Assembly: GCA_035255945.1 (NCBI GenBank)
Contig: DATEZA010000123.1
Coordinates: forward strand, 11,627-75,626
Direction of reading: 5' to 3'
DNA from: Thermoanaerobaculia bacterium
GTDB taxonomy: Bacteria > Acidobacteriota > Thermoanaerobaculia > Gp7-AA8
Length of the DNA stretch: 64,000 bases
Part shown: piece after piece, positions 34,816-59,581 of the stretch
Layout: every line of letters starts with the position of its first letter
Position numbering within the stretch: the stretch's first letter is position 1
Notes under the pieces: generated by a model
Told to the model about the DNA's origin: nothing
What the model saw: the letters and a program-made list of their open reading frames with translations, nothing else
Database searches by the model: none
Made by a program: the position numbers and the translations under genes

Positions 34816-34830
34816 GCTAGAATCAAAACA

Positions 34831-35712: not shown

Positions 35713-35713
35713 C

Positions 35714-36631
35714 ATGCCCGACTCCAACTCCATCTACGACTGCATCATCATCGGCGGCGGTCCCGCGGGCCTGACCTGCGCGATCTTCCTCGGACGTTAC
35801 CGCCGCCGCGTCCTCCTCTGCGACAACGGACGTCCGCGCAACTACGCATCGCGCGCGATTCATGGCTTCATCGGGCAGCACAACATCCCGCCCGGTGAGC
35901 TGCTGCGGCGCGGACGCGAAGAAGCGATCGCCGCAGGGGTCGAGGTCTGCGACTGCACCGTGTCGAGCATCGAGCGTGTCGGCGCCGACTTCTGCGTGAC
36001 CACGACCGCCGGCACGATGCGCACGCGCCGCGTCGTGCTCGCGTACGGCGTGCGCGACATCGTTCCCGACATCCCGCACCTCACCGATTTCTATCCCGGC
36101 AGCGTCTATCACTGTCCCGACTGCGACGGCTACGAAGTCACCGGCAAGCGCGTCGGGATCATCGGCCGCGGCAAGCGCGCGGCGGGCCTCGCGCTCAAAC
36201 TTTTGCAGTGGAGCAATGAGCTCACGATCTTCGTCGACGGGCAGCCGCGCGATTTTTCGCAGGAGCACACCTCGAAGTTGCTGGCCGAGGGGATCGGCGT
36301 GAAAGATGAAAAAGTGCTGGCGGTGACAGGGCACGGCGATCAGATCGCGCATGCGGTGCTGGAGACCGGCGAGCGCGTGGCGATCGATGCGCTCTTCTTT
36401 TCGATCGGCACCGTTCGCAGTTGCACGCTCGCCGAGGACCTCGGATGCAAGGTCTTCGAAGGTGAGCCGTGCATCGTCGTTGACGATTACAAACAGACCA
36501 GCGTCGAAGGCGTGTACGCGATCGGCGACCTCGCCCCCGGCTCCCAACTCGCGGTGACCTCGGCCGCGGATGGTGCCGTCGCCGCGGTGGCGATCAACAA
36601 GTCCCTCCTCCCCCCGTCCCGCCTGGTGTAG
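35714..36631 (+). CDS. thioredoxin-reductase-like NAD(P)/FAD-dependent oxidoreductase
   Basis: DCIIIGGGPAGL FAD motif, CPDCDG redox motif, second GRGKRA dinucleotide motif, GDLAPG. Confidence 0.85.
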   Translation: MPDSNSIYDCIIIGGGPAGLTCAIFLGRYRRRVLLCDNGRPRNYASRAIHGFIGQHNIPPGELLRRGREEAIAAGVEVCDCTVSSIERVGADFCVTTTAGTMRTRRVVLAYGVRDIVPDIPHLTDFYPGSVYHCPDCDGYEVTGKRVGIIGRGKRAAGLALKLLQWSNELTIFVDGQPRDFSQEHTSKLLAEGIGVKDEKVLAVTGHGDQIAHAVLETGERVAIDALFFSIGTVRSCTLAEDLGCKVFEGEPCIVVDDYKQTSVEGVYAIGDLAPGSQLAVTSAADGAVAAVAINKSLLPPSRLV

Positions 36632-37108
36632 GACAAGCTCTCAGCTTGTCCCCCAGGGTTTCCCACCCCTCGCCGGGGGGACAAGCTGAGAGCTTGTCCT
36701 ACACCAGGCGATCCAGAGCGCCTGTCCGCGTGCCGCCGTTCTCGGAGGAGCACGTCTCGACCGCGGCGGTGGGCCGATCAACAAGTCCCTCCTGCCACCG
36801 TCCCGCCCTGGTGTAGGACAAGCTCTCAGCTTGTCCCCCCAAGGGTTTCCCACCCCTCGCCGGGGGGACAAGCTGAGAGCTTGTCCTACACCAGGCGATC
36901 CAGAGCGCCTGTCCGCGTGCCGCCGTTCTCGGAGGAGCACGGCTCGACCGCGGTGGTGGCGATCAACAAGTCCCTCCCTGCCACCGTCCCGCTTGGTGTA
37001 GGACAAGCTCTCAGCTTGTCCCCCCAAGGTTTCCACCCTCCGCCGAGGGACAAGCTGAGAGCTTGTCCTACACCGCCGCGATCCAGAGCGCCTGCCGGCG
37101 TGCCGCCG
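36582..37108. repeat. 185-bp tandem repeat, about 2.85 copies, each with an ~80-bp nested palindrome
   Basis: GGTGTAGGACAAGCTC starts at 36625, 36810 and 36995 (period 185). The units also copy the last ~45 nt of the plus-strand gene and the last ~35 nt of the minus-strand gene. Confidence 0.9.
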
Positions 37109-37589
37109 CCTGCTTCGCCGCGAGCATGAGCTGCACGTAGGTCTGGATCTCGAGGTCTTTGTCGAACGCGAGGTCGTCCTCGAGATAATGCGCGGCGAGC
37201 TCCATCAGCTCGACATCATCGGTCGGCAGCGACGCCGCGCCCGCAAACACGCGCAACTCATCGAGCAGCGCCGGCAGACTTCCGACCTGCAACGGATCGG
37301 CCGCGTTCGGAATGGCGATGTGCTCCACGTTCGCGAACGGCGCCGGCACCCACACCATCTGATACGCATCGACACCCGCGAGCTGCGACGGATGCCCGCC
37401 ACCTAGCATCGACGTCGCGAGCTGCTGCAACAGCTTCCATCCATCGTGCTCGACGATGTCCGATCGCCACGCCTCGTCGTTACCACCCCCGGGCGCCGCA
37501 TACCGCTTCCACAGCTCCGCATCAACGGAACGCGCGAAGTCCGCCGGAAAAACATCCGACGCGGAACCGACGACGAATGACATGGGCAT
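37068..37589 (-). CDS. hypothetical protein
   Basis: Start taken at MPMSFVV (37589). The ORF-track N-terminus runs into the 8-mer repeat. No family recognised. Confidence 0.55.
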   Translation of the reverse strand: MPMSFVVGSASDVFPADFARSVDAELWKRYAAPGGGNDEAWRSDIVEHDGWKLLQQLATSMLGGGHPSQLAGVDAYQMVWVPAPFANVEHIAIPNAADPLQVGSLPALLDELRVFAGAASLPTDDVELMELAAHYLEDDLAFDKDLEIQTYVQLMLAAKQAAARRQALWIAAV

Positions 37590-45590: not shown

Positions 45591-47000
45591 TCATTCCGAG
45601 TACCAGTCGATGATGCGCGCGATCGCGCGCTGACACACTTTGCAGAACCCCACTTCATCGCGCGTAAACATCATGCAGTCGGTCTGCGGACGGAACAGCC
45701 CCTTCGCTTCGTAACCCGCCCCTTCGAAAGCGCCGACCTTGCCGGCGTACTTCTGATCGTGATCGAGGAACTTCGTCTCCCACACCTGCTCCTCGCGGAA
45801 GAGCGCATCCATCTCCGTCTCCGGACGATTCTCCGCGCGGATCTTGCGGCGCCGCGCCTGGATGTCGCGGCTGTGCTTCTCGAACTCTTCCTTGTCCCAC
45901 GGCGTCGGCAGCGGCACGTCCTTGTCCACCATGTCGAACCACTTCGGATGCGCGCCGTTCGCGGTGATGTTCGGCTCCCACGGCTCCGGATGTTCCACGC
46001 CTGTTTCATACGCGACATCGGACGTGTAGTACTCGTCCGCCAGTCCGGCGAAGTGATGTCCGAACTCGTGCACGAACACATACTCCGCGAAGCCGGTATC
46101 GACCGCCGCCGTCGCCTGATCGTTGAAGATCCCGCCGCCACCGTACTGCTTCTCGTTCACCAGCACCTCGAGGAAGTCGTACGGCGCCGCCGACGCGACG
46201 TCGCGCAGCGCGCGATTGTCGAGCGTCAGCACGTACCGCTCCGAATCGAAGATGTTGTACTCGGTGCCGATCGTCGTGCGGCGATCGTCGCGGGTGCGCG
46301 GACGATGCACGCCGCTCTGCGACGACGGCAGATCGATCGCCCGCACGTTGAAGTTTTTCTTGTGCGACTTGAACGGCTCGGTGTCGAAGAGCTTCGCGCT
46401 CAGCCGCTGCACGTCTTTGTGGAACTTCGGCAGCTCCGCCTCGGTGTAGCCCTCGCCGATGATCAGCAGGTCGACCTTTTCCGATGCGGGTCCGTTCTCG
46501 AACACCGTCCACACTTTGCCGATCGGCTTCAGGTCCGCCTTGTTGACGAACTGCGAATCGGGATTGACGAGCGCCGACCAGAGCTGCTGAAACGCGTTCT
46601 GTTTGTCGCGCTTCTTCAGCACCACCTGCACCGGTTTGCGCGGCCACGGAAAGCGCACCGACTCGGTGAACGTGCCGGCGTGCTCCTTCGCATCGTCCGT
46701 CGTCTGCCACTCGCCGAACACAGACGCGAATCCGTGCGAGTAAATCACCTGATTCGTCGTGCGATCGATGACTTCGAAGTAGTAGTTGCCGAGGTTCGTC
46801 GTATCGATCAGATGAGTCCGCGAGCCGGACCATGGGCCGTCGGATACGACACGATCGAGCGCCACGATCTCCTCGCCGTGATTGCCCGTGTGGAAGTAAT
46901 CGACGCGCATCGTTTTGTCGAGGAACAGGTCGTCGAACTTCGCTGCGCGCGCGGAGAATGCAAGCAGAAGTGTTGCGAGAATGATCCGAATTCGATGCAT
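45591..47000 (-). CDS. M64-family (IgA-peptidase-like) zinc metallopeptidase
   Basis: Start MHRIRIILATLLLAFSARA (signal peptide). FVHEFGHHFAGLADEY zinc motif. Confidence 0.85.
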   Translation of the reverse strand: MHRIRIILATLLLAFSARAAKFDDLFLDKTMRVDYFHTGNHGEEIVALDRVVSDGPWSGSRTHLIDTTNLGNYYFEVIDRTTNQVIYSHGFASVFGEWQTTDDAKEHAGTFTESVRFPWPRKPVQVVLKKRDKQNAFQQLWSALVNPDSQFVNKADLKPIGKVWTVFENGPASEKVDLLIIGEGYTEAELPKFHKDVQRLSAKLFDTEPFKSHKKNFNVRAIDLPSSQSGVHRPRTRDDRRTTIGTEYNIFDSERYVLTLDNRALRDVASAAPYDFLEVLVNEKQYGGGGIFNDQATAAVDTGFAEYVFVHEFGHHFAGLADEYYTSDVAYETGVEHPEPWEPNITANGAHPKWFDMVDKDVPLPTPWDKEEFEKHSRDIQARRRKIRAENRPETEMDALFREEQVWETKFLDHDQKYAGKVGAFEGAGYEAKGLFRPQTDCMMFTRDEVGFCKVCQRAIARIIDWYSE

Positions 47001-47022
47001 GAGTAAATTGTAGACTCGACGC

Positions 47023-48060
47023 ATGCGGGCACTCGTGCTATCTGTAATCTGCTGTCTGCTGTCCGGCGTCGCCGCCGCCCAGGTCACCGAGAAGATCTCC
47101 GTCGAGCGCGTCATCGTCGACGCCCGCGTCACCGACGATCACGGCGACCCGATCACCGATCTCGAACCGAAAGACTTTCGCGTGAAGATCGACGGCAAAT
47201 TGGTGAAGGTCGAATCGGCCGAGTGGATCCCGGAGACCGCGGCCGCGCGCGGACTGGCGAGCATCGGCAAAACGCAAGTCGAGAATCCGAACCCCGATCA
47301 GCAGACCGCGCCCGCGGGACGCCTCCTCGTCTTTCTCATCCAGACCGATTTCGCGCGCAACAAGTTCCGCCTCGGCGGACAGATGAAAGTCATCAGCAAC
47401 GCCGACGAGATGATCGAGTCGCTCGAGCCCGAGGACAAAGTCGCGGTGTTCCAGTTCGACTCACATCTCAAGTTCCGGCTCGATTTCACCGACGACAAAG
47501 CGCGCGTGAAGAATGCGATCCGCGACGCGCTGGCGATCGACGAGCCGAACGAGCCGCCGACGGTGCCGAATCCGTCGTTAAAGCGGCATCTCAACAAGGA
47601 CGAGATGTTCCACGCGACGAAGCCGGAGATGGCGCTGCTCATCGTTGGCAACGCGCTCCGCTCCATCCCCGGTCCGAAGTCGCTCATCCTCCTCGGATGG
47701 GGACTCGGTGAGCGCGTCAACGGCAGGATCATCATGCCGCGCGAGTATCCGATCGCGCGGCACGTGCTCGACGTCGCCCGCACCAGCGTGTTCTCGCTCG
47801 ACGTCACCGAAGCCGATTACCACGATCTCGCGGTCGGCATGGCGCAGGCCTCGGGCGATACCGGCGGCTTTTACCAAAGCACGTTCCGCTTCCCGCAGAT
47901 GGCGTTCGATCGTCTGAAGTCGACGCTGCAAGGTCACTACGAGCTCGAGGTGCACAAGCCGGAGAAGATCGTCCTCGGCACGCATCACATCGAGGTCGAT
48001 GTCGATCGGAAGAACGCGACGGTGATGGCGCGATCGACATACATCGAAGACGGCCAGTGA
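47023..48060 (+). CDS. VWA-domain protein (TIGR03436-like, Acidobacteria-type)
   Basis: Signal peptide, then ERVIVDARVTDDHGDPITDLEPKDFRVKIDGK, typical of the VWFA-related acidobacterial domain. Confidence 0.75.
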   Translation: MRALVLSVICCLLSGVAAAQVTEKISVERVIVDARVTDDHGDPITDLEPKDFRVKIDGKLVKVESAEWIPETAAARGLASIGKTQVENPNPDQQTAPAGRLLVFLIQTDFARNKFRLGGQMKVISNADEMIESLEPEDKVAVFQFDSHLKFRLDFTDDKARVKNAIRDALAIDEPNEPPTVPNPSLKRHLNKDEMFHATKPEMALLIVGNALRSIPGPKSLILLGWGLGERVNGRIIMPREYPIARHVLDVARTSVFSLDVTEADYHDLAVGMAQASGDTGGFYQSTFRFPQMAFDRLKSTLQGHYELEVHKPEKIVLGTHHIEVDVDRKNATVMARSTYIEDGQ

Positions 48061-48108
48061 TGCAGCACGGCGTGTCTCTTGCACATTTTCTTGTGCAGGA
48101 GGAATCAC

Positions 48109-48390
48109 ATGGCGTCGAAGTACGGCAAGAAGGCCTCGAAAAAAGTCGAAAAGGCGATGCACGAGCGCAAGCGCGGAACGCTGAAGAGCGGCAGCTCGGG
48201 CAAGAAGGTGAAGAGCCGCAAGCAGGCGATCGCCATCGGACTCTCCGAAGCGCGTCGCGAAGGCGCGAAGGTGCCGTCGAAGAAATCTTCGAAGAAGTCG
48301 GCGAAGAAATCGACTAAGAAATCTTCGAAGAAGTCGACGACGAAGAAGTCTTCGAAGAAGTCGGCGAAGAAATCTTCGAAGAAGAGCTGA
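48109..48390 (+). CDS. small basic protein with Lys/Ser-rich repeat tail
   Basis: AGGAGGA 5 nt upstream of ATG 48109. MASKYGKKASKKVEKAMHERKRGTLKSG... then (K/S)-rich repeats SKKSAKKSTKKSSKKS. Confidence 0.7.
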   Translation: MASKYGKKASKKVEKAMHERKRGTLKSGSSGKKVKSRKQAIAIGLSEARREGAKVPSKKSSKKSAKKSTKKSSKKSTTKKSSKKSAKKSSKKS

Positions 48391-49841: not shown

Positions 49842-49917
49842 AGGCGCTTAGCTCAGTCGGTAGAGCATCACCTTCACACGGTGGGGGTCAACGGTTCGAG
49901 TCCGTTAGCGCCTACCA
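49842..49917 (+). tRNA. tRNA-Val (anticodon CAC)
   Basis: Hand-folded cloverleaf: acceptor AGGCGCT/AGCGCCT, D arm GCTC-AGTCGGTA-GAGC, anticodon arm TCACC-TTCACAC-GGTGG, T arm AACGG-TTCGAGT-CCGTT, encoded CCA. Confidence 0.9.
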
Positions 49918-49930
49918 GATAACTCGTTGA

Positions 49931-49967
49931 AGCCGCTCAGGTTGCGCAGACCGGGCGGCTTTTTTTT
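49931..49967 (+). terminator. hairpin + T7 terminator after tRNA-Val
   Basis: AGCCGC...GCGGCT stem followed by TTTTTTT (49961-49967). Confidence 0.6.
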
Positions 49968-49983
49968 GCCTTCCTTCTGCCGA

Positions 49984-50005
49984 AAGTGTTCACGCAAGTG
50001 TTCAC
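49984..50005 (+). promoter_or_regulatory. paired AAGTGTTCAC direct repeats (candidate recombinase arm sites, attL side)
   Basis: AAGTGTTCAC at 49984-49993 and 49996-50005. The same 9-mer pair occurs at the other island end. Confidence 0.35.
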
Positions 50006-50140
50006 CGGGTCGCGGTTGGGTCCGAGACCGCGTCGCATCCGGCGCTCTTTCCTGCGCGACGAACGACAAATCAAGTTGTTGCGAGAGCATCGGACTCTGT
50101 AATGATCGACTGACAATGCTTGCTCGCGCCGTGAGCTCCG

Positions 50141-52819
50141 TCAGCGCCTCTTCGCGGCCGGGATCACGTTGACTGTCGCGCTCCCGCTAGTCCTGCTGGA
50201 ATCGTTCTCGATCATGATGGTGTAGGTCGTGGTTTGCCGAGGTGAGAGGCGCAACTGTCCTTGCAAAGGAACTGCGCCCACATCTGGCGTGATGACCACA
50301 CGCGTGGCATCGAATGAGTTCCATTGCAGGAGTATCTGTTCGCCGCGTTGGATCGTGTCGGGAGTCACGATGATGGATCCTGAGACAGGTTTCGAGGCTG
50401 GCGCAGCGACAACGAGTGTTGCGGTACCTTGTGCATGATCCTGTCCGTTCGACACGGTTATTGTGTACGTCGTCGTCTCTAGGGGCGATACGTCAACTTG
50501 GCCTGATGGTGCAACGAATCCAATTCCTGGTGTGATTTTGATTCGCGTAGCGTTGATACTTTTCCAGTCGAGATGAGCTGATTGGCCTGGCGCAATCGAA
50601 GCAGGTGAGACGCTCATTATTGCCGCCGGCGCCGCGTTTTGTGGAGCCACGCTGGCTTGCTGCCCTACGACCTGTGGTCGTTGGACGTCGAGCGTCACAG
50701 ACGCTTTCGCCGGACGACCGCTTGCGCTCCAGCCTTGGAGGGTATACGTCGTCGTTTGTGTCGGTGCGACGGTGATCTTGCCGCGTGGCTCGACCGTGCC
50801 AACGAGCGGGTTGAGTGCCAGCGTGGTCGTATCAATCGACGACCAATCGAGGTGCGCTGTCTCTCCGCGCCTGATGATCCCAGGCGTGACGCCCATTTCC
50901 AAAGCCGCCGCCGCGTCTCGTGTCAGGAGATGCACGATGGCCTTTCCGTACACCTCGCCAGATGGCGTACCGTCAGCGTTCGGGGCGTTTCGTGCCTCGA
51001 CCTTGACGAGGAAGCTCTTGCCGGCCGCGAATAGTTCTAGCGGAAGGGTGACGGTACCTTCGCGGGGGCCCACGCTTGGTGCCTTCGTGAACACGTTTCT
51101 TCCATTGATCGAGATGGTCCCGCCGTCATCCAGGGTGTAGTTCAGCCTTGCCTGCGTAACCGTGCGGTGTGCCGGTACGGAGCAGGACGTCGAGTCCGAT
51201 GTCAGTATCCCTACTCCTGCCTGTGTCTCAGCAGTGCAGGCCACGGCAAGGCCTGGAGGCGCAACTATCCCCGTGGGAGTAGCGGCGGGTTCGACGTGTA
51301 CCGTTGCGGATGCCTGCGCGCTGTCGCCGGTATCGTTGCTGATGGTCATCGTGTACGTCGTCGTGGCGCGTGGTGTGACTTGGATCCTGCCGTGTAGGGG
51401 GACGATGCCGATGCTTGGCGTGATCACCACATGCGTCGCGCCAAAGGAGTTCCATCGCAGTTCCGGAACCGTTCCGTTGCGACTGATGGTGTCAGGCGAC
51501 GCGATGAGCGATCCTGTTACCGGGGCGACCTCGTAGTCGGCCGGTCGGTTCGTGACGGTGACCATTACTGCGCCGCGTGCGATGACACCGTCGGCGTTCG
51601 TCGACACGATTTCATACGTTGTCGTAGCGCGTGGAGAGACGTCGATGCTGCCCGTCGGACCGACGATGCCGATGTTCGGGCTGATGACGACATCCACGGC
51701 GTCGGTAGATGACCACGTGAGCTTGGCGGACCCTCCGAAGGTGATGGTGCCGGGTGATGCCGTCAGGCCACACGCCGGGAGGTGTTGCGTCGTTGCCGTG
51801 GCCGGTGCCGTGTGGAACCGCGGGGGTGCTACACGAGGTCGTCGCTCTTGGTGTAACGTGATCGCGCCTGCCAGTAAGAGCGTTACCAGCAACGCCATCA
51901 GCAGCGAGCGGCGCGGAAAAGCTGGTGGCGGCACAACGTCGCCATCGGTGACCTTAACCGTCGTCGCATCCTGAGTGATGGCTGGGGCGACGGTCGCTTT
52001 GGCGCTTCGGGCTGGTGGTAGTTCTCGGAGGGCCCGTCCAATATCAGCAGCAGAGTCGTATCGCTTGCGGGGTTCTTTTTGCAAGCAGCGAGCGACGATG
52101 TCGCCGACAGGCTCGCGAAGGGGGGCAGGGAATTCACAATTGATAGCGTGGATCGTGTGATATGGCGTTGCGCGATGAAACGGATGGCGTCCGGTAAGCG
52201 CTTCATAGAGGACGATACCGAATGAAAAAATATCCGTACGGTAATCGACTTTTTTCGAGGCGTCCGTTTGTTCGGGCGAGAGGTAGTCAATTGTTCCTAC
52301 AATCGTGTTTGTCGTCGTAATCGTCGCGCCTTCGGTTCTTGCCAGTCCGAAGTCGACGATGCGCGCGCGGTCGTCCGTCCCGATCATGATGTTCGCGGGT
52401 TTCAGATCGCGATGCATGAACCCCTTGCGGTGGAGTTCCTCAAGCCCATCGGCGACCTCACTCATCCAGCGGACGAGTTGGTCGTTGCTTGCCTTGCCGA
52501 TGTGGTCGCGCAACGTCGTCCCGTCGATGAACTCCATGACGAGGTAGGGACGCTCGTGACCATCGTGCAGAAAGGCGCCAACGTCGTATACGCTGACGAC
52601 GTTCGGATGCTTGAAGGCCGCTCCGGCTTGTCCTTCGCGAACAAATCGTTGGATATCGTGGGGCGTGGTGCCCAAGAGGAGCTTGATCGCAACATCGCGC
52701 TGGAGTTCGGCGTCTCTTGCTCGGTATACCTCGCCCATACCACCGGCGGGCAAGACATCGGTGATCTCAAAACGACCGTCGAGGCGCTCGCCGATCCGAA
52801 GCGTAGGAGTCTTGTCCAT
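50141..52819 (-). CDS. receptor-type Hanks Ser/Thr kinase with five extracellular Ig-like repeats
   Basis: Kinase motifs GGMGEVY, VAIK, HRDLKPAN, DFGLAR, SPE. One TM segment (LLMALLVTLLLAGAI). Five ~75-90-aa repeats with consensus SP..I..G.SA.L.W.S..AT.V.I.P.IG.V...G...VSP..TTTYT, plus one unrelated central domain. Confidence 0.88.
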   Translation of the reverse strand: MDKTPTLRIGERLDGRFEITDVLPAGGMGEVYRARDAELQRDVAIKLLLGTTPHDIQRFVREGQAGAAFKHPNVVSVYDVGAFLHDGHERPYLVMEFIDGTTLRDHIGKASNDQLVRWMSEVADGLEELHRKGFMHRDLKPANIMIGTDDRARIVDFGLARTEGATITTTNTIVGTIDYLSPEQTDASKKVDYRTDIFSFGIVLYEALTGRHPFHRATPYHTIHAINCEFPAPLREPVGDIVARCLQKEPRKRYDSAADIGRALRELPPARSAKATVAPAITQDATTVKVTDGDVVPPPAFPRRSLLMALLVTLLLAGAITLHQERRPRVAPPRFHTAPATATTQHLPACGLTASPGTITFGGSAKLTWSSTDAVDVVISPNIGIVGPTGSIDVSPRATTTYEIVSTNADGVIARGAVMVTVTNRPADYEVAPVTGSLIASPDTISRNGTVPELRWNSFGATHVVITPSIGIVPLHGRIQVTPRATTTYTMTISNDTGDSAQASATVHVEPAATPTGIVAPPGLAVACTAETQAGVGILTSDSTSCSVPAHRTVTQARLNYTLDDGGTISINGRNVFTKAPSVGPREGTVTLPLELFAAGKSFLVKVEARNAPNADGTPSGEVYGKAIVHLLTRDAAAALEMGVTPGIIRRGETAHLDWSSIDTTTLALNPLVGTVEPRGKITVAPTQTTTYTLQGWSASGRPAKASVTLDVQRPQVVGQQASVAPQNAAPAAIMSVSPASIAPGQSAHLDWKSINATRIKITPGIGFVAPSGQVDVSPLETTTYTITVSNGQDHAQGTATLVVAAPASKPVSGSIIVTPDTIQRGEQILLQWNSFDATRVVITPDVGAVPLQGQLRLSPRQTTTYTIMIENDSSRTSGSATVNVIPAAKRR

Positions 52820-53011
52820 AGAGGAGCGCGAGGGATCCTACCGGAAATCCTGCACTCCGGCACTGCGGAATGCGGATCTTCGCACTTGGTAGCTGACGCG
52901 TAACCCAGGCTACGGTCAGTGTCGCCCCGTCACAGCCGCGTTCGTGGAAACCGATCAGACGAGCGCCTGTAAAACGGCGTCCAGCGCCTCGGCACTAGCG
53001 ATGCCGCGCGG

Positions 53012-53395
53012 TTGCTCGGCATGACGCGCGGCCGACTGGAACGCGAAGCGCGACGCGACCAGGAAGACGCGTACCGCATCAACGGCCGCTGGCGCTTCAC
53101 GTGGCGACAGGTCGCCTACCTCGCGCTGCGGCAGTGGTCGCTCGCGCACCTTCACGAGGCGCTCGGAACGGACGCAGCGAGCGTTCTGCCGTCGCTGCTC
53201 GCGTTGCGCACGATTTCCGTTCGGCTACCCGAGTACCTCGTGCGGGCCATTGAACACTCGGCCGTAAGCGACGACACCACGATGGACGACTGGCTGCACC
53301 ATGAGTTGGTCGACTTCGCCGGCACCGTGGTTGATCAGATGGAGCGCGTTGCGCCTGGTTTTCGTCGCGCGTACATCTTTCCGGGCAACGAGTAG
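53012..53395 (+). CDS. excisionase-type HTH protein (N-terminally compromised)
   Basis: Open frame from 52973 reads GTSDAARLLGMTRGRL...AYRINGRWRF (HTH_17-like). The first possible starts (TTG 53012, ATG 53021) lie inside the HTH. An in-frame TAA is at 52970. Confidence 0.5.
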   Translation: MLGMTRGRLEREARRDQEDAYRINGRWRFTWRQVAYLALRQWSLAHLHEALGTDAASVLPSLLALRTISVRLPEYLVRAIEHSAVSDDTTMDDWLHHELVDFAGTVVDQMERVAPGFRRAYIFPGNE

Positions 53396-53543
53396 CCGCG
53401 CGCCGTCACCGAATCTACTCTAAGTAGAATTGGCTGCGCACGTGATCCACTGCGTGTGGACGGGCGAACTTCACCTCGTCGAGTTGGCGTCCTACCAGCT
53501 AAATTTATGTAGAACATGCGCATCACGCGCATGGAGGAACTAC

Positions 53544-56500
53544 ATGCCTGAACCCCAAGGACGAATCGCGAGCCCCGCGTCGTCCGGCGGCGAAGGGACG
53601 TACTTCGAGCAGCACACGAACGCCTACTGGCTCGCTCTACTGCTTGTGGACGCAATCCCTCCGATGGCGCTGGACGGCACGATCTCCAAGGTCAGCTTTC
53701 AGACGGAGCATCTCGGCTGGTCAACTGACGACGTGCTCGTCACGAGTCGCACGAGCACCAGCGACATCCGGCAACTCGCCTGTCAGGTGAAGAAGTCGCT
53801 GACGATTGGTGCCGACGATGCTGAGTTCTCCGGCACGATCATCGATGCCTGGAAGGACTTCTCCAACGCGACCGTGTTTCGCGAGAACATCGACGCGCTC
53901 GCGCTCATCACGCAGCTCGGAACGAATGTGGTGCTGCGCGACTTTGCAGCACTCCTTGACTGCGCACGTGGGTCCTCAACCATCGCGGATTTCGAGCACC
54001 GCCTCGGGACTCCCGGATTCGTCAACGCACGAGTCCGCACCCACGCTACCGTCATCGAGGAGATTCTCCAGACCCACGAAGGAGGAGCCGTCGACCGCGA
54101 GCGCATGTGGGCGTTTCTCCGACACCTGTACGTCCTCAGCCTCGACCTGAACACCGCGACATCGCAGACTGCAGCGCACGTACAAACACTGCTCGCCCAC
54201 ACCGCGACGGAGAAGGACCGCCTCGCAGCTGCCGCGGCAACTTGGAATGAACTCCTCGCCGAAGTCTCGCACGGCGCGCCCGAGGCGCACGAGTACGAGC
54301 GCACCTCGCTACCGGCATCGGTTCTCGCCCGACACGCGCCGCTCTCAACAGCCGATCGGCGCGCCCTTGATCGTCTCGCGCATCACTCACGCGTGATCCT
54401 CGACGGTATCCGTACCACGATCGGCGACGAGCTGCATCTGCCACGCACGAAGGTCCTGACGCAGCTGATCGAGCAAATGGAACGTTCGCGCGTGCTTCTC
54501 GTGGCCGGAGCAGCGGGTAGCGGCAAGTCTGCCGTCGTGAAAGAGGCCGCGGAGGTGCTCGCGCGTGATCACTTCGTGTTTGCGTTCCGCGCCGAAGAAC
54601 TGGCGCAACCGCACTTCGACACTACGCTGACAACCATAGGCGTCATGCTGAGCGCCGAAGAACTCTCTGGCGTCCTCGCCGGCCAAGCTCGAAAAGTGCT
54701 CATCATCGAAAGCGTCGAGCGACTCCTCGAAACGACCTTTCGCGACGCATTCACTGACCTCCTTCGCTTCGCACGAAAAGATCCCACCTGGCGCCTGATT
54801 CTCACGTGTCGCGACTACTCAATCGAATTGCTGCGTGCGGCGTTCCTCCATGCTGCGGCGACACCCCACGACACCCTCCACATCCCTCCGCTCGACGACG
54901 ACGAAATCGCAGACGTTGGGGCACACGCGCCGATACTTCGTCGCCTGTTGGAAAGCAGCCGCCTGCGCAAGCTACTGGGCAACCCGTACGTCCTGAACAT
55001 CGCCGTTCGAACGCCTTGGCGAGAGGATGATCGCCTACCGGAATCAGAGCGTGACTTCCGCGGGCACTTCTGGCGGTCAAGGGTGCGTGCAGAAGAGCGA
55101 CGCGAGGGTGGCCTGCCACAGCGGCGCGCCGATGCGTTCATGCAGATCTGTGCGCGCCGCGCGCAAGCGCTGAAGCTCTTCGCGCCGATCTCTGGCCTCG
55201 ACGCGGAGGCCGTCACGGAGTTGGAGAACGACAGCCTCGTCGTGTCGTCTCCCGAGAATCGCGCGCTCGCTGCACCCGCGCACGATGTACTCGAGGACTG
55301 GGGCGTTCTTGAATGGATCGAGCACCTGTATCAGCAGGCAAATGACTCGGTGGAGGAGTTCGCGCGCACCCTCGGAGACTACCCTGCGGTGCGGCGCACG
55401 TACCGCACGTGGATCAGTGAACTCCTGGAGCGCGATCCCGTCACCGCGGACGCGTTCTTCGACGCTGTCGTCACGGACGAAGCGCTCCCGCAACACTTTC
55501 GTGATGACACGATTCTCGCGTTTCTCCGCTCAACCCACGCGCCAGCGCTCCTGACGCGACACGCAACGCGGCTGGTCGAGAACGATAAGCGTTTGTTGAG
55601 GCGCATCGTGCACCTCTTGCGCGTCGGCTGCGTGACGGTACCTGCGTGGCTTCCATCGCCAACCGCATCAAGCATTCTTGCCTATCCCGAAGGGGAAGCA
55701 TGGCCGACCGTGCTCGCGATCGTTCGCGATCATCTGCCGTTGTTCGATGAGCGAGATCGACAACTCCTTCTCGGGTTCGTGGAGGATTGGGCGAAAGGCG
55801 TGAACTGGCAGGTGCAGTATCCGGCGGGTCATGAAGCCGCCGCCGCCATCACGCTGTGGCTCATCCCTCGCTGCGACGGTTACCTGTCCGAGGATCTTCT
55901 GAAGCGCGCGCTGAAGGTACTCGTGAAGATCCCCGCATCTGATGCAGCGGCGTTTGCCAGTGTTCTTCGAGGGCATGCTGGCGAGGAACGTGACCGCACG
56001 GCGGAAGAACTCCAAGAGCTCGTGTTCGACGGGATGGAGGGAAATGCGGTCGCTCGCGATCTGCCGGATCTCCTCATCGAAGTCGGCAAAGCATACTTTC
56101 TCGCCCCGCCAGAAGACCTGGACAATCCCTACGGGTACTCGCTCGGCGTTGAGCTGTTTTTCGGCATCAACGAGTCGCGCGGCCACGGTCACTTCCCGCC
56201 CAGCGTTTGGCGCGGCCCGTTCCGACCGCTGCTCCAGCATCACTGGAAGAAGGGTCGTGATTTCATCGTGGACTTGCTCAACTACAGTGCCGAATGGTAC
56301 GGCCAAGGCCTCGGCCCCGATCGCGACATCGAGCCAGCATTCGAGATCACGCTGATGTTCGCGGACGGCACGCGGAAGAAGCAGTGGGCGAATGCGCGAC
56401 TCTGGCAGCTGTATCGCGGGACATCAGTCACGCCCTACCCGCTGCAGTCGGCGGCGATGGCGCTTGAAGCGTTTCTCTTTGAAGTGGCGAAGCAGGATGT

Positions 56501-56966
56501 GAACCTCCTCGATCCCGTGCTGCTGCAGTTGCTGCGGGCCAGCACGTCCGTGTCCGTGACTGCGATTGTCGCGAGCCTCGCGGTCGCCTACCCGCGATCG
56601 TGCGGCGAAACACTGCTCGTGCTGCTCTCCAGTCCCGAGTGCATACGACTGGACCGCGCGCGCATGGGAACGACGGGTCAGGTTCCCCGTATTCACGGCT
56701 CCCGCAGCACGATACTTGGGGTGAAATCTTCGCGAAGGAGCGCACGGAGGCCGACGCGCAGCAGCATCGCCAGCAGGATCTCGAAGCCGCAATTACGCAA
56801 CTGCAGGCGAGCGCGTACGGGCCTCGCGTGTGTGAAGCAATCGACAACCACCGGGCGGCGATCCCGGCCACGACCGAACAGACGGAAGAGCATCGCCTCT
56901 GGCGACTCGCGCTGCATCGTATGGACCTGCGCAACTACGTGCCCGCCGAAAAGACGGCAGCCATGA
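53544..56966 (+). CDS. NACHT/STAND-like P-loop NTPase with nuclease-like N-terminal domain (N-terminal ORF of a frameshifted gene)
   Basis: GGAGG 6 nt before ATG 53544. E..DD..QVK signature (53706-53792). Walker A GAAGSGKS (54507-54530), Walker B-like KVLIIES, LILTCR sensor motif, then helical repeats. Beyond about 56690 the frame turns into Arg/Ser-rich nonsense. Confidence 0.75.
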   Translation: MPEPQGRIASPASSGGEGTYFEQHTNAYWLALLLVDAIPPMALDGTISKVSFQTEHLGWSTDDVLVTSRTSTSDIRQLACQVKKSLTIGADDAEFSGTIIDAWKDFSNATVFRENIDALALITQLGTNVVLRDFAALLDCARGSSTIADFEHRLGTPGFVNARVRTHATVIEEILQTHEGGAVDRERMWAFLRHLYVLSLDLNTATSQTAAHVQTLLAHTATEKDRLAAAAATWNELLAEVSHGAPEAHEYERTSLPASVLARHAPLSTADRRALDRLAHHSRVILDGIRTTIGDELHLPRTKVLTQLIEQMERSRVLLVAGAAGSGKSAVVKEAAEVLARDHFVFAFRAEELAQPHFDTTLTTIGVMLSAEELSGVLAGQARKVLIIESVERLLETTFRDAFTDLLRFARKDPTWRLILTCRDYSIELLRAAFLHAAATPHDTLHIPPLDDDEIADVGAHAPILRRLLESSRLRKLLGNPYVLNIAVRTPWREDDRLPESERDFRGHFWRSRVRAEERREGGLPQRRADAFMQICARRAQALKLFAPISGLDAEAVTELENDSLVVSSPENRALAAPAHDVLEDWGVLEWIEHLYQQANDSVEEFARTLGDYPAVRRTYRTWISELLERDPVTADAFFDAVVTDEALPQHFRDDTILAFLRSTHAPALLTRHATRLVENDKRLLRRIVHLLRVGCVTVPAWLPSPTASSILAYPEGEAWPTVLAIVRDHLPLFDERDRQLLLGFVEDWAKGVNWQVQYPAGHEAAAAITLWLIPRCDGYLSEDLLKRALKVLVKIPASDAAAFASVLRGHAGEERDRTAEELQELVFDGMEGNAVARDLPDLLIEVGKAYFLAPPEDLDNPYGYSLGVELFFGINESRGHGHFPPSVWRGPFRPLLQHHWKKGRDFIVDLLNYSAEWYGQGLGPDRDIEPAFEITLMFADGTRKKQWANARLWQLYRGTSVTPYPLQSAAMALEAFLFEVAKQDVNLLDPVLLQLLRASTSVSVTAIVASLAVAYPRSCGETLLVLLSSPECIRLDRARMGTTGQVPRIHGSRSTILGVKSSRRSARRPTRSSIASRISKPQLRNCRRARTGLACVKQSTTTGRRSRPRPNRRKSIASGDSRCIVWTCATTCPPKRRQP

Positions 56967-58636
56967 AAGACACCGTGCCCGCGAACTGCATCGTCATCAC
57001 CCCAGCCGCTCCTGAGACGGACTTGCAGGAAATGATGGAGGAGAGTTCGACACGCCACGCGCGCGTGAGCGAGCGCATCGGCAACCAGATGTGGGGCATC
57101 AAGATGTTCGAGCGCGATCCCGGCACCTACGATCCGGCGGAGTGGCGCAGCCGGCTCGCCGCAGTTCGAGCAGGCGAGGCAGCCGCTGATGTTCCTGCGG
57201 ACGAGATGTTCTTTGGTGACGGTGCGGGAGTCACTGCCGCCGTGTGTGTCCGCGATCACTGGGAGGAGATGAACGAGGAGGAGCACACGTGGTGTGTGCG
57301 CCGCGTCTGCGATGAAATTGCGCGAACAGCGGATGACTGGTCTGAGACCCCTCAGATGCTTGGCCTGATGAACGGAGCCGTACCAGCGGCGACTGTCGTC
57401 CCACAGATCGTCATGCACGGGAAGCCCACAGATCGCGCAGCCGCGCTAGAAGCGCTCGCTGTGGCGCTAACGCATCCAAATCGTGAGGTGTACCTGGCCG
57501 CGGCTCGTGGAAGCCGGGAGCTTTGGAGTGAGCACCGCGACCTCGCATTGCGCTGCGTCCACGCGTTGCGCGTGCAAGCCATGACCTTCCAGCAGACCTT
57601 CGACGCAGAGCAGACCAAGCCGTACCGGAAACGTGCGGAGACCGGAAAACTTCGCAGCAAGGCGGCATCGATAGCGCGCAAGATCATCCGCGGGCGTCGT
57701 GCACTCACAGCAGACGATGTCTCGGCCTTCACGCTTGACGGATGGTTTACGGCCGACGCGAGCATCGCCATTCTCATCATGCTCTCGAACGCGCCAGAGG
57801 AGCGAACCACCTTCGACGCGTTCGCACAAGTAGCGACGACACTCGTGGCGTGGTGGGAGGCAGATCGACACGACCGGTCGCACCGGCGTGAGAGTCGCTC
57901 ACACGAGACTGAGTACGCCCTCAAGGAGCTGCTCGCCGAAGGACTCTTCCGCGTGCCGGAGAGCGACGCAGCGAAGATCCTCCAGCCACTCCTCGATGCC
58001 GTCGACACGCACGCGGACAAAGTCGCCGATATCCTCCACGACATCATCGTGCGTGAAGACCGAAACCGCTCGACCGCGCGGTTCTGGTTCCTCTGGAAGC
58101 TGTTTGCTAATCGAATCCGCACGGCCCGATGGCTTCCGAACATCGATGCGGACCATGCCTGGGGACGCCAACTCCTCGACCACGTACTCCTCTCCCGTGG
58201 CTGGAAGGACAGCACGCGGCACTGGACGAGCCTTGAAGGGTACGCGCAACACGTTCACAGCTTGTTCGAGCAACTCCCACTCTCGCGAGCGGCACTTCGT
58301 CGATATCTCGCCTTCCTGTACCACGTCGGAGAGCAGTCGCTCCCGGAGGCGTTTATCCGACTGCACGCGAAGCTGCGCCACGCAAATGCGCCGGAACTCC
58401 TCGGCGGAGGCGACAGCGCATTTGTACTTGAGTCGCTTTTGCTGCGGTACGTGTACGCGAAGCCGTTTGAGCTCAAACGCCGCCCCGACATGCGCGCGGC
58501 GGTCCTATTCCTCCTCGACGCGCTCGTAGAAACCGGTTCGTCCGCAGCGTTTCGAATGCGCGACGACTTCGTAACCCCACTCTCGGTGGCGAGCGAGCAA
58601 CATCAGCAAGCGCAACCTGAGCCGGTTAACGCGTAG
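56600..58636 (+). CDS. C-terminal helical-repeat part of the same NTPase (second ORF, frame +2)
   Basis: Sensible sequence only from about 56690 (SPYSRLPQHDTWGEIFAKERTEAD...). There is no plausible start near that point. Continues as an alpha-helical repeat-like sequence to 58636. Confidence 0.65.
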   Translation: MRRNTARAALQSRVHTTGPRAHGNDGSGSPYSRLPQHDTWGEIFAKERTEADAQQHRQQDLEAAITQLQASAYGPRVCEAIDNHRAAIPATTEQTEEHRLWRLALHRMDLRNYVPAEKTAAMKDTVPANCIVITPAAPETDLQEMMEESSTRHARVSERIGNQMWGIKMFERDPGTYDPAEWRSRLAAVRAGEAAADVPADEMFFGDGAGVTAAVCVRDHWEEMNEEEHTWCVRRVCDEIARTADDWSETPQMLGLMNGAVPAATVVPQIVMHGKPTDRAAALEALAVALTHPNREVYLAAARGSRELWSEHRDLALRCVHALRVQAMTFQQTFDAEQTKPYRKRAETGKLRSKAASIARKIIRGRRALTADDVSAFTLDGWFTADASIAILIMLSNAPEERTTFDAFAQVATTLVAWWEADRHDRSHRRESRSHETEYALKELLAEGLFRVPESDAAKILQPLLDAVDTHADKVADILHDIIVREDRNRSTARFWFLWKLFANRIRTARWLPNIDADHAWGRQLLDHVLLSRGWKDSTRHWTSLEGYAQHVHSLFEQLPLSRAALRRYLAFLYHVGEQSLPEAFIRLHAKLRHANAPELLGGGDSAFVLESLLLRYVYAKPFELKRRPDMRAAVLFLLDALVETGSSAAFRMRDDFVTPLSVASEQHQQAQPEPVNA

Positions 58637-58657
58637 ATCCGAAGGGGCGTCTTAGTC

Positions 58658-58678
58658 TAGTGTTCACCTAGTGTTCAC
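58658..58678 (+). promoter_or_regulatory. paired TAGTGTTCAC direct repeats (candidate arm sites, attR side)
   Basis: TAGTGTTCAC at 58658-58667 and 58669-58678, followed by TATCCTAGG x2 and AGGATGTCC/GGACATCC inverted motifs (58700-58770). Confidence 0.35.
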
Positions 58679-58782
58679 GCGGTCGCCGTACGGCTATCCT
58701 AGGCTGTCTTAGGATGTCCATGGTCGCTCGTAAAGCATTGAAACTACGTATATCCTAGGACATCCGCGGACCGGGACAGCTT

Positions 58783-58827
58783 TTCACACGGTGGGGGTCA
58801 ACGGTTCGAGTCCGTTAGCGCCTACCA
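58783..58827 (+). repeat. attR-like copy of the tRNA-Val 3' half
   Basis: TTCACACGGTGGGGGTCAACGGTTCGAGTCCGTTAGCGCCTACCA, identical to 49873-49917. Lacks the tRNA 5' half. Confidence 0.9.
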
Positions 58828-58845
58828 AAATGTAATTGCTTTCAG

Positions 58846-58883
58846 GGCCACGAGTTACATGACTCGTGGCCTTTCGTTTTTTT
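58846..58883 (+). terminator. rho-independent terminator (probable original tRNA-Val terminator)
   Basis: GGCCACGAGT-TACATG-ACTCGTGGCC followed by TTTCGTTTTTTT. Confidence 0.8.
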
Positions 58884-58974
58884 GTCCGAACCTCTGGCCA
58901 ATTTGCCTCTCAACTCTTCATAGAAGTCTTCAATGACTTAGCGGCGCCGCACTGTAGATATTCACCCGCGAAAG

Positions 58975-59454
58975 GTGAGCTTCGTCGGTTCGGCACTCCT
59001 TCGACTTTCTTTCGCGATCTTCCGGACTTCTTTCGACGTCGATCGCCAGAATGATTCGGTGAAGAGTGGCAGCGTGGCGATTGCCGTTCCACGTGATCCG
59101 GATCGTGCGCGCGCGATCATTACGCGCGGCCGCCGCATCGCGCGTTATCTCGGGATTGAGTGGATTGCCGTACGAATTGAGCGTGCCGCACTTCCTCGCG
59201 ATCGACGCGGCATGGGGACCGATCTTCGGGATCTCGTAACTGGTCTTGGCGGTCGTTTTCTCTGCGCTGAGGCGCGCGACATCGCGGCGGGACTCATCGA
59301 GGTGTCGCGACGCGAGCACGCGCGGCTCCTTGTGATCGGCAGATCGCGAAGGCCACGGCTCCTGCGTCGGCTGAAGCGCGGCACGACGGAGCGGATTCTG
59401 AGTGCGAAACGACCGTTCGATGTCGTCGTGGCCGATGAAGGAGTGGATCGTTGA
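58975..59454 (+). CDS. universal-stress-protein-like domain protein (KdpD-linker type), possibly a remnant
   Basis: VAIAVPRDPDRARAIITRGRRIARYLG...LLVIGRSRRPRLL...RPFDVVVA resembles a USP fold. GTG start and N-terminus uncertain. Confidence 0.45.
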   Translation: MSFVGSALLRLSFAIFRTSFDVDRQNDSVKSGSVAIAVPRDPDRARAIITRGRRIARYLGIEWIAVRIERAALPRDRRGMGTDLRDLVTGLGGRFLCAEARDIAAGLIEVSRREHARLLVIGRSRRPRLLRRLKRGTTERILSAKRPFDVVVADEGVDR

Positions 59455-59581
59455 ACGATCACGAAGAAGAGCCATCGAAGATTCAGCGCATCAAACGACT
59501 CATCATCGGCCCACCACGTGATGTAACGGACCCGGAGATTTTTCATCACGTCTCGCTGATCGCATTCTTCGCCTGCCACAA

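What the first reader, a model, noticed from the sequence alone, without database searches (positions are those of the whole stretch)
53544..58636. A roughly 1700-aa NACHT/STAND-like NTPase with a nuclease-like N-terminus and long helical C-terminus (candidate antiphage sensor), interrupted by a frameshift
Seen: a strong SD plus ATG lies at 53544. The N-terminal ~330 aa carry an E...DD...QVK pattern (53706-53792). Next come Walker A GAAGSGKS (54507-54530), a Walker B-like KVLIIES (~54693), an LILTCR motif (~54795) and PLDDDEI, followed by more than 1200 aa of helical, repeat-like sequence. Around 56690-56720 the first frame degenerates into Arg/Ser-rich sequence while frame +2 becomes sensible, with no start codon nearby. 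Established: a tripartite layout of N-terminal effector, central STAND/NACHT ATPase and C-terminal repeat sensor characterises Avs and bacterial NACHT antiphage proteins, and Cap4/DUF4297-type PD-(D/E)xK nucleases are common effectors in them. Inference: this is a single Avs/bNACHT-like defence gene carried as island cargo. The C-terminal sensor and the N-terminal domain do not match anything I can name. The frameshift means the gene is either inactivated or affected by an assembly error.
Basis: partly seen in the sequence, partly recalled or inferred. Interest (0 to 1): 0.85.

Follow-up and report, generated by a model that had tools for sequence, protein, structure and literature searches.

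The report
Frameshifted Avs4 antiphage gene, Cap4-like nuclease
This is a roughly 1,700-residue bacterial antiphage sensor of the known Avs4 family, carrying a divergent Cap4-like DNA-cutting domain and sitting at the end of a small tRNA-Val island; in this genome a single missing base breaks it, so it is an ordinary, probably dead, copy of a known defence gene.

Summary
One gene (53544-58636, +) is split into two frames, and every motif sits at the stated coordinates. It is not an unknown STAND protein. The ATPase and the whole C-terminal sensor align collinearly with Avs4 (AVAST type 4), in PADLOC (E=6e-104 and 3e-32), in NCBIfam Avs4, and against the solved EcAvs4 structure 8DGF (E=7e-74). 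The N-terminal 285 residues match no sequence profile. A confident AlphaFold model (pLDDT 91) has a PD-(D/E)xK core, and its best structural matches are Cap4-type nucleases (LmuA, CBASS Cap4, the Avs3 N-terminus). More than 100 full-length single-ORF homologues (about 1,690 aa) share the architecture, so this is one gene and not two. DNA alignment to an 85%-identical orthologue puts the lesion at a 1-nt deletion at 56670/56671. Three assemblies carry the same lesion. No other decay is visible, so the lesion is either recent or a read-level error. The gene lies at the attR end of an 8.9-kb island bounded by exact 45-bp tRNA-Val repeats, with no integrase. Verdict: a new member of a known kind. 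Interest is low.

The parts
53533..53537 (+). Shine-Dalgarno GGAGG, 6 nt before the start codon
   Evidence: the start position is shared by 92% of homologues
53544..56670 (+). Avs4-family gene, 5' part in the original frame (codons 1 to about 1043)
56670..56671 (+). Site of the 1-nt deletion (frameshift); the orthologue has one extra base here
   Evidence: DNA alignment to L003; protein alignment
56671..58636 (+). Avs4-family gene, 3' part, now in frame +2, stop at 58634-58636
   Evidence: (Avs4 model positions 943-1569)
56671..56966 (+). Out-of-frame Arg/Ser-rich tail (about 97 codons) that ends the truncated 1140-aa product
53544..54398 (+). N-terminal effector domain (aa 1-285): divergent Cap4-like PD-(D/E)xK nuclease fold plus a helical bundle
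   Evidence: AlphaFold model with pLDDT 91.1 and pTM 0.87; Foldseek best matches LmuA 9hr5, Cap4 6vm5/6wam/6vm6 and Avs3 8dgc
53586..53615 (+). GGEGTYFEQH motif on and before helix 1; G18 and E22 are invariant in 44 diverse homologues
53727..53732 (+). D62-D63, invariant, at the start of strand 2 (predicted metal-binding Asp of the PD motif)
53784..53792 (+). Q81-V-K83 at the end of strand 3 (the (D/E/Q)xK of the nuclease motif), at least 90% conserved
54369..55493 (+). STAND NTPase module (about aa 276-650; the outer limits are approximate)
   Evidence: Pfam AAA_16 and nSTAND1 above cut-off at aa 300-457; the Avs4 profile match starts at aa 275
54507..54530 (+). Walker A GAAGSGKS (Lys328)
54693..54713 (+). 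Walker B region KVLIIES; the family consensus ESVERLLE aligns with DSAEKLLE of EcAvs4
54795..54812 (+). LILTCR (family consensus LTCRDYS), which aligns with VVFTTR of EcAvs4; I take it to be the sensor-1 arginine motif
55494..58633 (+). C-terminal helical sensor homologous to the EcAvs4 sensor (interrupted at 56670/56671; start approximate)
   Evidence: 8dgf_A aligned at residues 184-1214 and 1359-1585; PADLOC and NCBIfam Avs4 to the model end
49842..49917 (+). tRNA-Val (CAC); its last 45 nt (49873-49917) form attL of the island
58783..58827 (+). attR: exact 45-bp copy of the tRNA-Val 3' end, 147 nt after the gene's stop codon
   Evidence: 0 chance matches in 100 shuffles
58659..58782 (+). Conserved island arm before attR, with tandem AGTGTTCAC, two copies of ATCCTAGG and inverted GGATGTCC; the AGTGTTCAC pair recurs near attL at 49985-50005
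58844..58883 (+). Strong hairpin plus T-run just after attR, probably the displaced tRNA terminator

Best explanation
The locus encodes one Avs4-family (AVAST type 4) antiviral STAND NTPase of about 1,697 aa. It has three parts. The N-terminal effector (aa 1-285) is a divergent Cap4-like PD-(D/E)xK nuclease. The central part is a STAND ATPase (Walker A GAAGSGKS, Walker B-like IIESVE, LTCR). The C-terminal part is a long helical sensor homologous to the portal-binding sensor of EcAvs4. By analogy with characterised Avs3, Avs4 and Avs7 proteins, the intact protein would stay autoinhibited until its sensor binds a phage portal protein. It would then oligomerise through the ATP-bound NTPase. That would bring the Cap4-like domains together into an active nuclease that degrades DNA indiscriminately, aborting the infection. 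The domain identities, the single-gene structure and the lesion are shown here. The trigger, the oligomerisation and the DNase activity are inferred. In this genome a 1-nt deletion at 56670/56671 (codon about 1043) shifts the frame. The product is then 1,140 aa and lacks about 650 residues of sensor, so this copy is most likely non-functional. The lesion looks recent. The gene is the attR-proximal cargo of an 8.9-kb integrase-less island inserted in tRNA-Val.
For: Avs4 identity:
- PADLOC Avs4 matches both halves collinearly, at E=6.4e-104 (model positions 166-927) and E=2.8e-32 (model positions 943-1569), and no other AVAST model matches.
- NCBIfam Avs4 matches in the same way.
- EcAvs4 8dgf_A matches at E=7e-74 over its residues 184-1585.

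STAND NTPase:
- AAA_16 scores 33.7 bits (cut-off 32.6) and nSTAND1 scores 27.7 bits (cut-off 27.1).
- The NTPase motifs are conserved across 116 homologues.

Nuclease domain:
- The AlphaFold model has pLDDT 91 and an alpha-beta-beta-beta-alpha-beta core.
- Invariant E22 lies on helix 1, D62/D63 lie before strand 2, and Q81-x-K83 lie on strand 3.
- The best 15 Foldseek matches are all Cap4-type nucleases (LmuA, Cap4, Avs3), at E from 5e-6 to 5e-4 and probability 1.0. HamA follows at rank 16.

Single gene:
- 613 homologues were found. The best ones are 1,680-1,740 aa and cover 99% of the repaired protein.

Lesion:
- A single-base gap appears against the orthologue DNA.
- The sequence is identical in the JGI and Logan assemblies.

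Recent origin of the lesion:
- Identity to orthologues is 85-87% before the lesion and 83-84% after it.
- At family columns conserved at 95% or more, mismatches are 1/215 before and 2/92 after.

Mechanism, from the literature:
- Avs4 senses the portal and its effectors are exchangeable, including PD-DExK nucleases (PMC12642450).
- Avs3 and Avs4 are phage-activated non-specific DNases (PMC11564622).
- Cap4 domains are activated by tetramerisation in SeAvs3, SeAvs7 and LmuA (PMC13581612, PMC12663957).

Island:
-.
Against: - The NCBIfam Avs4 equivalog cut-off of 1,500 bits is far from met (370 + 120 bits). This is a distant relative of EcAvs4, and portal specificity is not shown.
- The N-terminal domain has no sequence-profile match to DUF4297/Cap4 or to anything else.
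- TM-scores to Cap4 structures are moderate (0.44-0.52).
- The catalytic role of E22, D62/D63 and Q81/K83 is inferred from their positions in a model, not from a superposition I could inspect.
- The three assemblies that share the frameshift may all derive from one read set, so a read-level artefact is not excluded.
- No integrase was found in the island.
Confidence: 0.8

Rival explanations
1. The gene is intact in the organism, and the missing base is a sequencing or consensus error in the metagenome data. On this reading the locus encodes a working Avs4-type defence protein.
For: There is no second lesion in 1,697 codons. Family-invariant residues are kept equally well on both sides of the shift, and conservation against orthologues is equal on both sides. 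The JGI contig, the Logan contig and the NCBI third-party MAG may all come from the same reads.
Against: The site (GGGAA|CGAC) is not a long homopolymer, where indel errors concentrate. Three different assemblies give the same base string, 100% identical over 7-9 kb. No near-identical intact allele exists in the protein database: the best hit apart from the exact 1140-aa product is 85% identical.
Confidence: 0.3
2. The two frames are used on purpose, either through programmed -1 ribosomal frameshifting or as a split two-protein Avs4 (effector plus NTPase, with a separate sensor).
For: Frame +2 stays open for 678 codons, and the gene caller found a 571-aa product with its own ATG at 56921.
Against: There is no slippery X XXY YYZ heptamer at or before the site (CGC ATG GGA ACG ACG GGT). 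All close and distant homologues listed are single ORFs through this conserved segment. The shift falls inside a conserved sensor segment, not at a domain boundary.
Confidence: 0.03
3. It is an Avs4-like STAND protein by descent, but its sensor recognises something other than the phage portal. Alternatively, its N-terminal domain is not a DNase (for example an RNase, or an inactive scaffold).
For: The similarity to EcAvs4 is distant: 490 bits in total against the 1,500-bit equivalog cut-off. Another Avs type has been shown to recognise several unrelated phage proteins (PMC11564622). The third motif reads QxK rather than ExK or DxK. No Cap4 sequence profile matches.
Against: The sensor aligns with EcAvs4 over nearly its whole length. 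Avs4 homologues from Streptomyces, a distant phylum, still respond to portals (PMC12642450). All the best structural matches are dsDNA nucleases of defence systems. The motif residues are invariant or nearly so across 44 diverse sequences.
Confidence: 0.15

Closest known systems
EcAvs4 (AVAST type 4, PDB 8DGF)
   Same: The STAND NTPase and the whole C-terminal sensor are homologous and collinear (E=7e-74, EcAvs4 residues 184-1585; PADLOC and NCBIfam Avs4). It has the same tripartite layout and a similar size (1,587 against 1,697 aa).
   Different: The effector differs. The first roughly 180 residues of EcAvs4 (described as an Mrr-like nuclease, from my memory of Gao et al. 2022) have no counterpart here. 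They are replaced by a 285-aa Cap4-like domain. The relationship is distant, far below the NCBIfam equivalog cut-off. This copy is frameshifted.
SeAvs3 and SeAvs7 N-terminal Cap4 nuclease domains (PDB 8DGC; PMC13581612)
   Same: These are N-terminal Cap4-type PD-(D/E)xK domains fused to a STAND NTPase. 8dgc_A has the highest query-normalised TM-score of the matches (0.52 over 284 columns). In those proteins activation is by tetramerisation of the Cap4 domains.
   Different: Their sensors differ: Avs3 senses the large terminase and Avs7 the major capsid protein. There is no detectable sequence similarity (11% identity in the structural alignment). The regulatory loops described for Avs3 and Avs7 were not examined here.
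Cap4 of CBASS (PDB 6VM5, 6WAM, 6VM6) and LmuA of Lamassu (PDB 9HR5)
   Same: These give the best Foldseek E-values (5e-6 to 5e-4, probability 1.0). They are defence nucleases switched on by oligomerisation (PMC12663957).
   Different: They are coupled to SAVED or SMC-type sensors, not to a STAND NTPase. Pfam DUF4297 does not match this domain.
Streptomyces Avs4 homologues with exchangeable effectors (PMC12642450)
   Same: They show that Avs4 sensors from distant phyla still respond to portals, and that a PD-DExK nuclease domain is a natural Avs4 effector that can be swapped in.
   Different: Those proteins were not compared by sequence here. SsAvs4 uses a protease plus Pepco module.

Membership tests
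Avs4 (AVAST type 4) | Collinear profile match over the NTPase and the C-terminal sensor | tested here: met
   PADLOC PDLC02169 matches model positions 166-927 (E=6.4e-104) and 943-1569 (E=2.8e-32). EcAvs4 8dgf_A matches at E=7e-74.
Avs4 (AVAST type 4) | Score above the NCBIfam NF041815 equivalog cut-off (1,500 bits) | tested here: not met
   The two halves score 370.1 and 119.6 bits. This makes it a distant family member, not an equivalog of EcAvs4. The model's N-terminal 160 positions (a different effector) are unmatched.
Avs4 (AVAST type 4) | Intact STAND NTPase motifs (Walker A, Walker B, sensor-1 Arg) | tested here: met
   GAAGSGKS, IIESVE and LTCR are present and conserved in 116 homologues.
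Avs4 (AVAST type 4) | Activation by phage portal protein | not testable with these tools
   Inferred from sensor homology and from the literature (PMC12642450).
Avs4 (AVAST type 4) | Single uninterrupted reading frame | tested here: not met
   There is a 1-nt deletion at 56670/56671. Homologues are single ORFs of about 1,690 aa.
Cap4 / DUF4297-type PD-(D/E)xK nuclease | Alpha-beta-beta-beta-alpha-beta core carrying an acidic residue on helix 1, Asp before strand 2 and (D/E/Q)xK on strand 3 | tested here: met
   The model has pLDDT 91. E22 lies in H17-34, D62/D63 lie before E64-70, and Q81/K83 lie in E75-83. These residues are invariant or at least 90% conserved.
Cap4 / DUF4297-type PD-(D/E)xK nuclease | Structural similarity to solved Cap4-type domains | tested here: met
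   The best 15 Foldseek PDB matches are LmuA, Cap4 and Avs3, at probability 1.0, E from 5e-6 to 5e-4 and TM-score 0.44-0.52.
Cap4 / DUF4297-type PD-(D/E)xK nuclease | Sequence-profile match to the Pfam family (DUF4297) | tested here: not met
   No Pfam family matched at E<=1 in more than one of 44 members. NCBIfam, PADLOC and a PDB profile search gave nothing for this domain. I therefore call it Cap4-like by fold, not a DUF4297 member.
Cap4 / DUF4297-type PD-(D/E)xK nuclease | Metal-dependent dsDNA cleavage | not testable with these tools
   Needs biochemistry.
NACHT (Pfam PF05729) / bNACHT | Score above the Pfam NACHT gathering cut-off | tested here: not met
   NACHT scores 20.1 bits against a cut-off of 26.7. 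nSTAND1 and AAA_16 pass their cut-offs. It is a STAND NTPase, but NACHT membership is not shown.
tRNA-integrated genomic island | Direct repeat of the tRNA 3' end bounding the segment | tested here: met
   The exact 45-bp repeat lies at 49873-49917 and 58783-58827, with 0 matches in 100 shuffles.
tRNA-integrated genomic island | Content differs between related genomes at the same tRNA | tested here: met
   L003 is syntenic up to tRNA-Val and carries different genes around the orthologous Avs4.
tRNA-integrated genomic island | Integrase or recombinase gene inside the island | tested here: not met
   Pfam finds only a Ser/Thr kinase, plus one ORF with no family match. No integrase was found in the L003 island either.

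The most novel reading that the evidence does not exclude
The N-terminal 285-aa domain is a large, un-annotated effector family: 1,521 representative clusters at 50% identity, found mainly in Acidobacteriota, Myxococcota and Planctomycetota. It shares only its fold with Cap4, and it could have a distinct substrate or regulation, given its GGxGxxFE...TDD...QxK signature. Separately, the Avs4-arm-att module on an integrase-less tRNA-Val islet could be a mobilisable defence cassette that borrows a recombinase in trans.
Probability: 0.15. Interest if true: 0.4.

Novelty: new member of a known kind. Interest (0 to 1): 0.22.

Why it matters
This finding matters mainly for annotation. A widespread Avs4 clade from soil phyla carries an effector domain that Pfam, NCBIfam and PADLOC do not recognise. 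Here that domain is assigned by structure to the Cap4-like nucleases. The assignment extends the known mix-and-match pattern of Avs sensors and effectors, pairing a type-4 sensor with the effector type seen in Avs3 and Avs7. It also gives point mutants to test. The copy in this window is frameshifted, so it adds nothing functional for this organism. It does not open a new question.

Tried and rejected
- **Sequence-profile searches of the N-terminal domain.** Pfam on the protein and on 44 diverse members, NCBIfam, PADLOC and an HMM profile against all PDB sequences gave nothing credible. Only structure prediction plus Foldseek resolved it.
I first repaired the frame in the C run. Protein and DNA alignments to orthologues then moved the lesion to 56670/56671.
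- **Looking for the same strain with or without the extra base.** Exact pattern scans of the metagenome and genome collections found no matches.
- **Integrase search.** Pfam scans of the island ORFs here and in L003 were negative.
- **Sigma-70 promoter scan.** No site was found upstream of the gene. This is uninformative for this phylum.
- **Gao et al. 2022 (Science).** The paper is not held in the library. Statements about the Mrr-like domain of EcAvs4 and about the range of Avs4 effectors in that paper rest on my memory and on later papers.
- **The PADLOC PD-T4-6 hit of the neighbouring kinase.** I do not take it as evidence of a defence role, because it covers only the generic kinase domain.
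- **Programmed frameshifting.** Rejected for lack of a slippery site and because all homologues are single ORFs.


Full report
**Observation.**
- The region holds two long + strand ORFs in different frames. ORF A runs from ATG 53544 to a stop at 56964-56966 (1,140 aa). ORF B is in frame +2 and ends at 58636.
- GGAGG lies 6 nt before the ATG.
These are QTE...DD...QVK (53700-53795), Walker A GAAGSGKS (54507-54530), KVLIIES (54693-54713), LILTCR (54795-54812) and PLDDDEI (54888-54908).
- Inserting a single base restores one ORF of 1,697 codons with no other stop.

**Where the frameshift is.**
- Close homologues read ...DRARM-x-x-D-(R)-x-SGSPY-x-RLPQ-x-D. In the window, DRARM is in the first frame and SGSPYSRLPQHD is already in frame +2.
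- DNA alignment with the orthologous gene in L003 (85% protein identity) shows exactly one gap: window ATGGGAA-CGACGGGT against ATGGCAAGCGACCGGT. One base is therefore missing between 56670 and 56671.
- The site is not a long homopolymer. The C run is at 56685-56688 and is not involved.
- No slippery heptamer precedes the site, so programmed frameshifting is not plausible.

**Is the lesion real?**
- The exact 1,140-aa product is on record from an NCBI third-party MAG annotated as Thermoanaerobaculia (Acidobacteriota), from a JGI metagenome contig and from a Logan assembly.
- The two shorter contigs are 100% identical to the window over 8,994 and 7,069 bases, including the lesion.
- These three assemblies may share one read set. 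Assembler error is therefore excluded, but read-level error is not.
- There is no other sign of decay.
  - Identity to six orthologues is 78-88% in the segments before the lesion and 77-84% in those after it; for the closest, P0001, the figures are 85-87% and 83-84%.
  - At family columns conserved at 95% or more, the window protein deviates at 1 of 215 positions before the lesion and 2 of 92 after it. At 98% or more it deviates at none.
- The lesion is either recent or an error. I put about 0.65-0.7 on a true pseudogene.
- Exact pattern scans for the junction, with or without the extra base, found nothing in the metagenome and genome collections.

**What the gene is.**
- PADLOC gives a single strong family, Avs4.
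  - ORF A residues 275-1045 match model positions 166-927 (E=6.4e-104).
  - ORF B residues 41-657 match model positions 943-1569 (E=2.8e-32).
  - The two halves are therefore collinear parts of one Avs4-type protein.
- NCBIfam Avs4 (NF041815) matches the same way, at 370 and 120 bits. That is far below its 1,500-bit equivalog cut-off, so this is a distant relative.
- The solved EcAvs4 (8dgf_A) aligns at E=7e-74 over its residues 184-1214 and 1359-1585. That span covers the NTPase and nearly the whole sensor.
- Pfam places the ATPase in STAND. AAA_16 and nSTAND1 score just above their cut-offs, and NACHT scores below its cut-off.
- The Walker A, Walker B-like ESVERLLE and LTCRDYS motifs are conserved across 116 full-length homologues.

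**One gene, not two.**
- A database search with the repaired protein returned 613 homologues.
- The best 120 are almost all 1,680-1,740 aa and cover 99% of the query, N-terminal domain included. They come from Acidobacteriota, Sorangium, Gemmataceae, Phycisphaerae and others.
- None of them is split at this junction.

**The N-terminal domain.**
- Residues 1-275 lie outside the Avs4 models. They match nothing in Pfam, NCBIfam or PADLOC, nor in a profile search of PDB sequences.
- An exhaustive HMMER search found the domain in 1,521 representative clusters at E<=0.001 (820 at E<=1e-10). Among the best 150, the long proteins are nearly all about 1,690 aa.
- An alignment of 44 diverse copies (30-56% identical to the window) has these invariant residues: G18, E22, Q53, D62, D63, D105, D117. 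Q81 and K83 are nearly invariant.
- AlphaFold2 on that alignment gave a confident model (pLDDT 91.1, pTM 0.87).
  - The order of elements is helix 17-34, strands 45-52, 64-70 and 75-83, helix 93-107, strand 118-124, then a helical bundle.
  - This is the PD-(D/E)xK core. E22 is on helix 1, D62/D63 are at the start of strand 2 and Q81-x-K83 are on strand 3.
- Foldseek against the PDB returned only Cap4-type defence nucleases among its best matches.
  - These are Lamassu LmuA (9hr5, E=5e-6), CBASS Cap4 (6vm5, 6wam, 6vm6, 6wan) and the Avs3 N-terminus (8dgc_A, TM-score 0.52 over 284 columns), followed by HamA (8zue).
Membership of the Pfam family is not shown.

**How it most likely works.**
- The literature establishes three points.
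  - Avs4 recognises phage portal protein, and Avs4 effectors are exchangeable, including PD-DExK nucleases (PMC12642450).
  - Avs3 and Avs4 are phage-activated non-specific DNases (PMC11564622).
  - Cap4 domains in SeAvs3, SeAvs7 and LmuA become active when tetramerised (PMC13581612, PMC12663957).
- By inference, the intact protein would bind portal through its sensor, oligomerise through the ATP-bound NTPase and assemble its Cap4-like domains into an active DNase, aborting infection.
- The truncated product here keeps the nuclease, the NTPase and about 40% of the sensor, followed by a 97-residue out-of-frame tail. It should not be able to sense.

**Context.**
- tRNA-Val (CAC) lies at 49842-49917.
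- Its last 45 nt recur exactly at 58783-58827, 147 nt after the gene's stop. No shuffled sequence gave a match.
- The 8.9-kb segment between the repeats holds three ORFs:
  - an 892-aa Ser/Thr kinase on the minus strand;
  - a 127-aa ORF with no family match;
  - the Avs4 gene.
- No integrase was found.
- The related genome L003 is syntenic up to the same tRNA-Val and carries the orthologous Avs4 with different neighbours. It has two copies of the roughly 125-bp arm that precedes attR.
- Tandem AGTGTTCAC motifs occur near both island ends.
- Two other orthologues, in L005 and L007, sit elsewhere with no tRNA nearby, next to toxin-antitoxin genes. Homology there is confined to the gene plus 50-230 bp upstream.
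- The island-cargo inference is supported.

**Verdict.**
- This is a known kind of system: an Avs4 STAND sensor with a nuclease effector.
- The combination is a type-4 sensor with a divergent, un-annotated Cap4-like effector. It is common in soil phyla, and this copy is broken.
- I file it as a new member of a known kind, with low interest.
- The useful outputs are the structural assignment of the effector domain, the corrected frameshift position and the island boundaries.

Noticed in passing
window 49842-58883: An 8.9-kb island sits in tRNA-Val, bounded by exact 45-bp direct repeats (49873-49917 and 58783-58827). It contains no recognisable integrase. A strong terminator hairpin (58844-58873) follows attR.
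   Followed up: partly
window 49985-50005 and 58659-58782; L003 15119-15258 and 20055-20222: Tandem AGTGTTCAC motifs lie near both island ends in the same orientation. The arm before attR also has two ATCCTAGG copies and inverted GGATGTCC/GGACATCC. That arm is about 80% conserved and duplicated in the related island of L003. These are possible recombinase arm sites.
   Followed up: partly
window 50141-52819 (-): An 892-aa Hanks-type Ser/Thr kinase with Ig-like repeats lies inside the island. It hits PADLOC PD-T4-6 models (E=6e-79), but only over the generic kinase domain, so a defence role is not shown.
   Followed up: partly
window 53012-53395 (+): A 127-aa ORF lies directly upstream of the Avs4 gene. 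It contains an 'RINGRWRF' stretch that reminds me of excisionase-type HTH proteins. It has no Pfam hit and only a weak PADLOC hit (PDC-M02B, E=0.007), and it is not conserved in the orthologous loci.
   Followed up: partly
L003 7479-9714 and 15633-19889: The orthologous island carries other cargo. One group is a 463-aa protein (weak PADLOC PDC-M14A hit, E=2e-11) and a DUF4238 protein. The other is a three-gene block (314, 317 and 786 aa) with no family hits, bounded by its own arm and degenerate att copy. This suggests tandem accretion at tRNA-Val.
   Followed up: partly
L005 15156-15374 and 23471-24411; L007 9142-9542: Orthologous Avs4 genes in other genomes lie next to toxin-antitoxin genes: a PhdYeFM antitoxin and Xre-RES in L005, and a HicA toxin in L007. 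No tRNA lies within 10 kb.
   Followed up: no
window 34085-37579, 45607-46967, 48108-48296: The segments upstream of the tRNA are syntenic with L003 at 69-77% DNA identity, including an M64 peptidase gene (45591-47132, -). The two MAGs are therefore related, and the island is the variable part.
   Followed up: partly
window 58930-59475 (-) and 58975-59454 (+): Overlapping ORFs of 181 and 159 aa on opposite strands lie just after the island. Neither has a Pfam hit, and which one (if either) is a gene is unclear.
   Followed up: no
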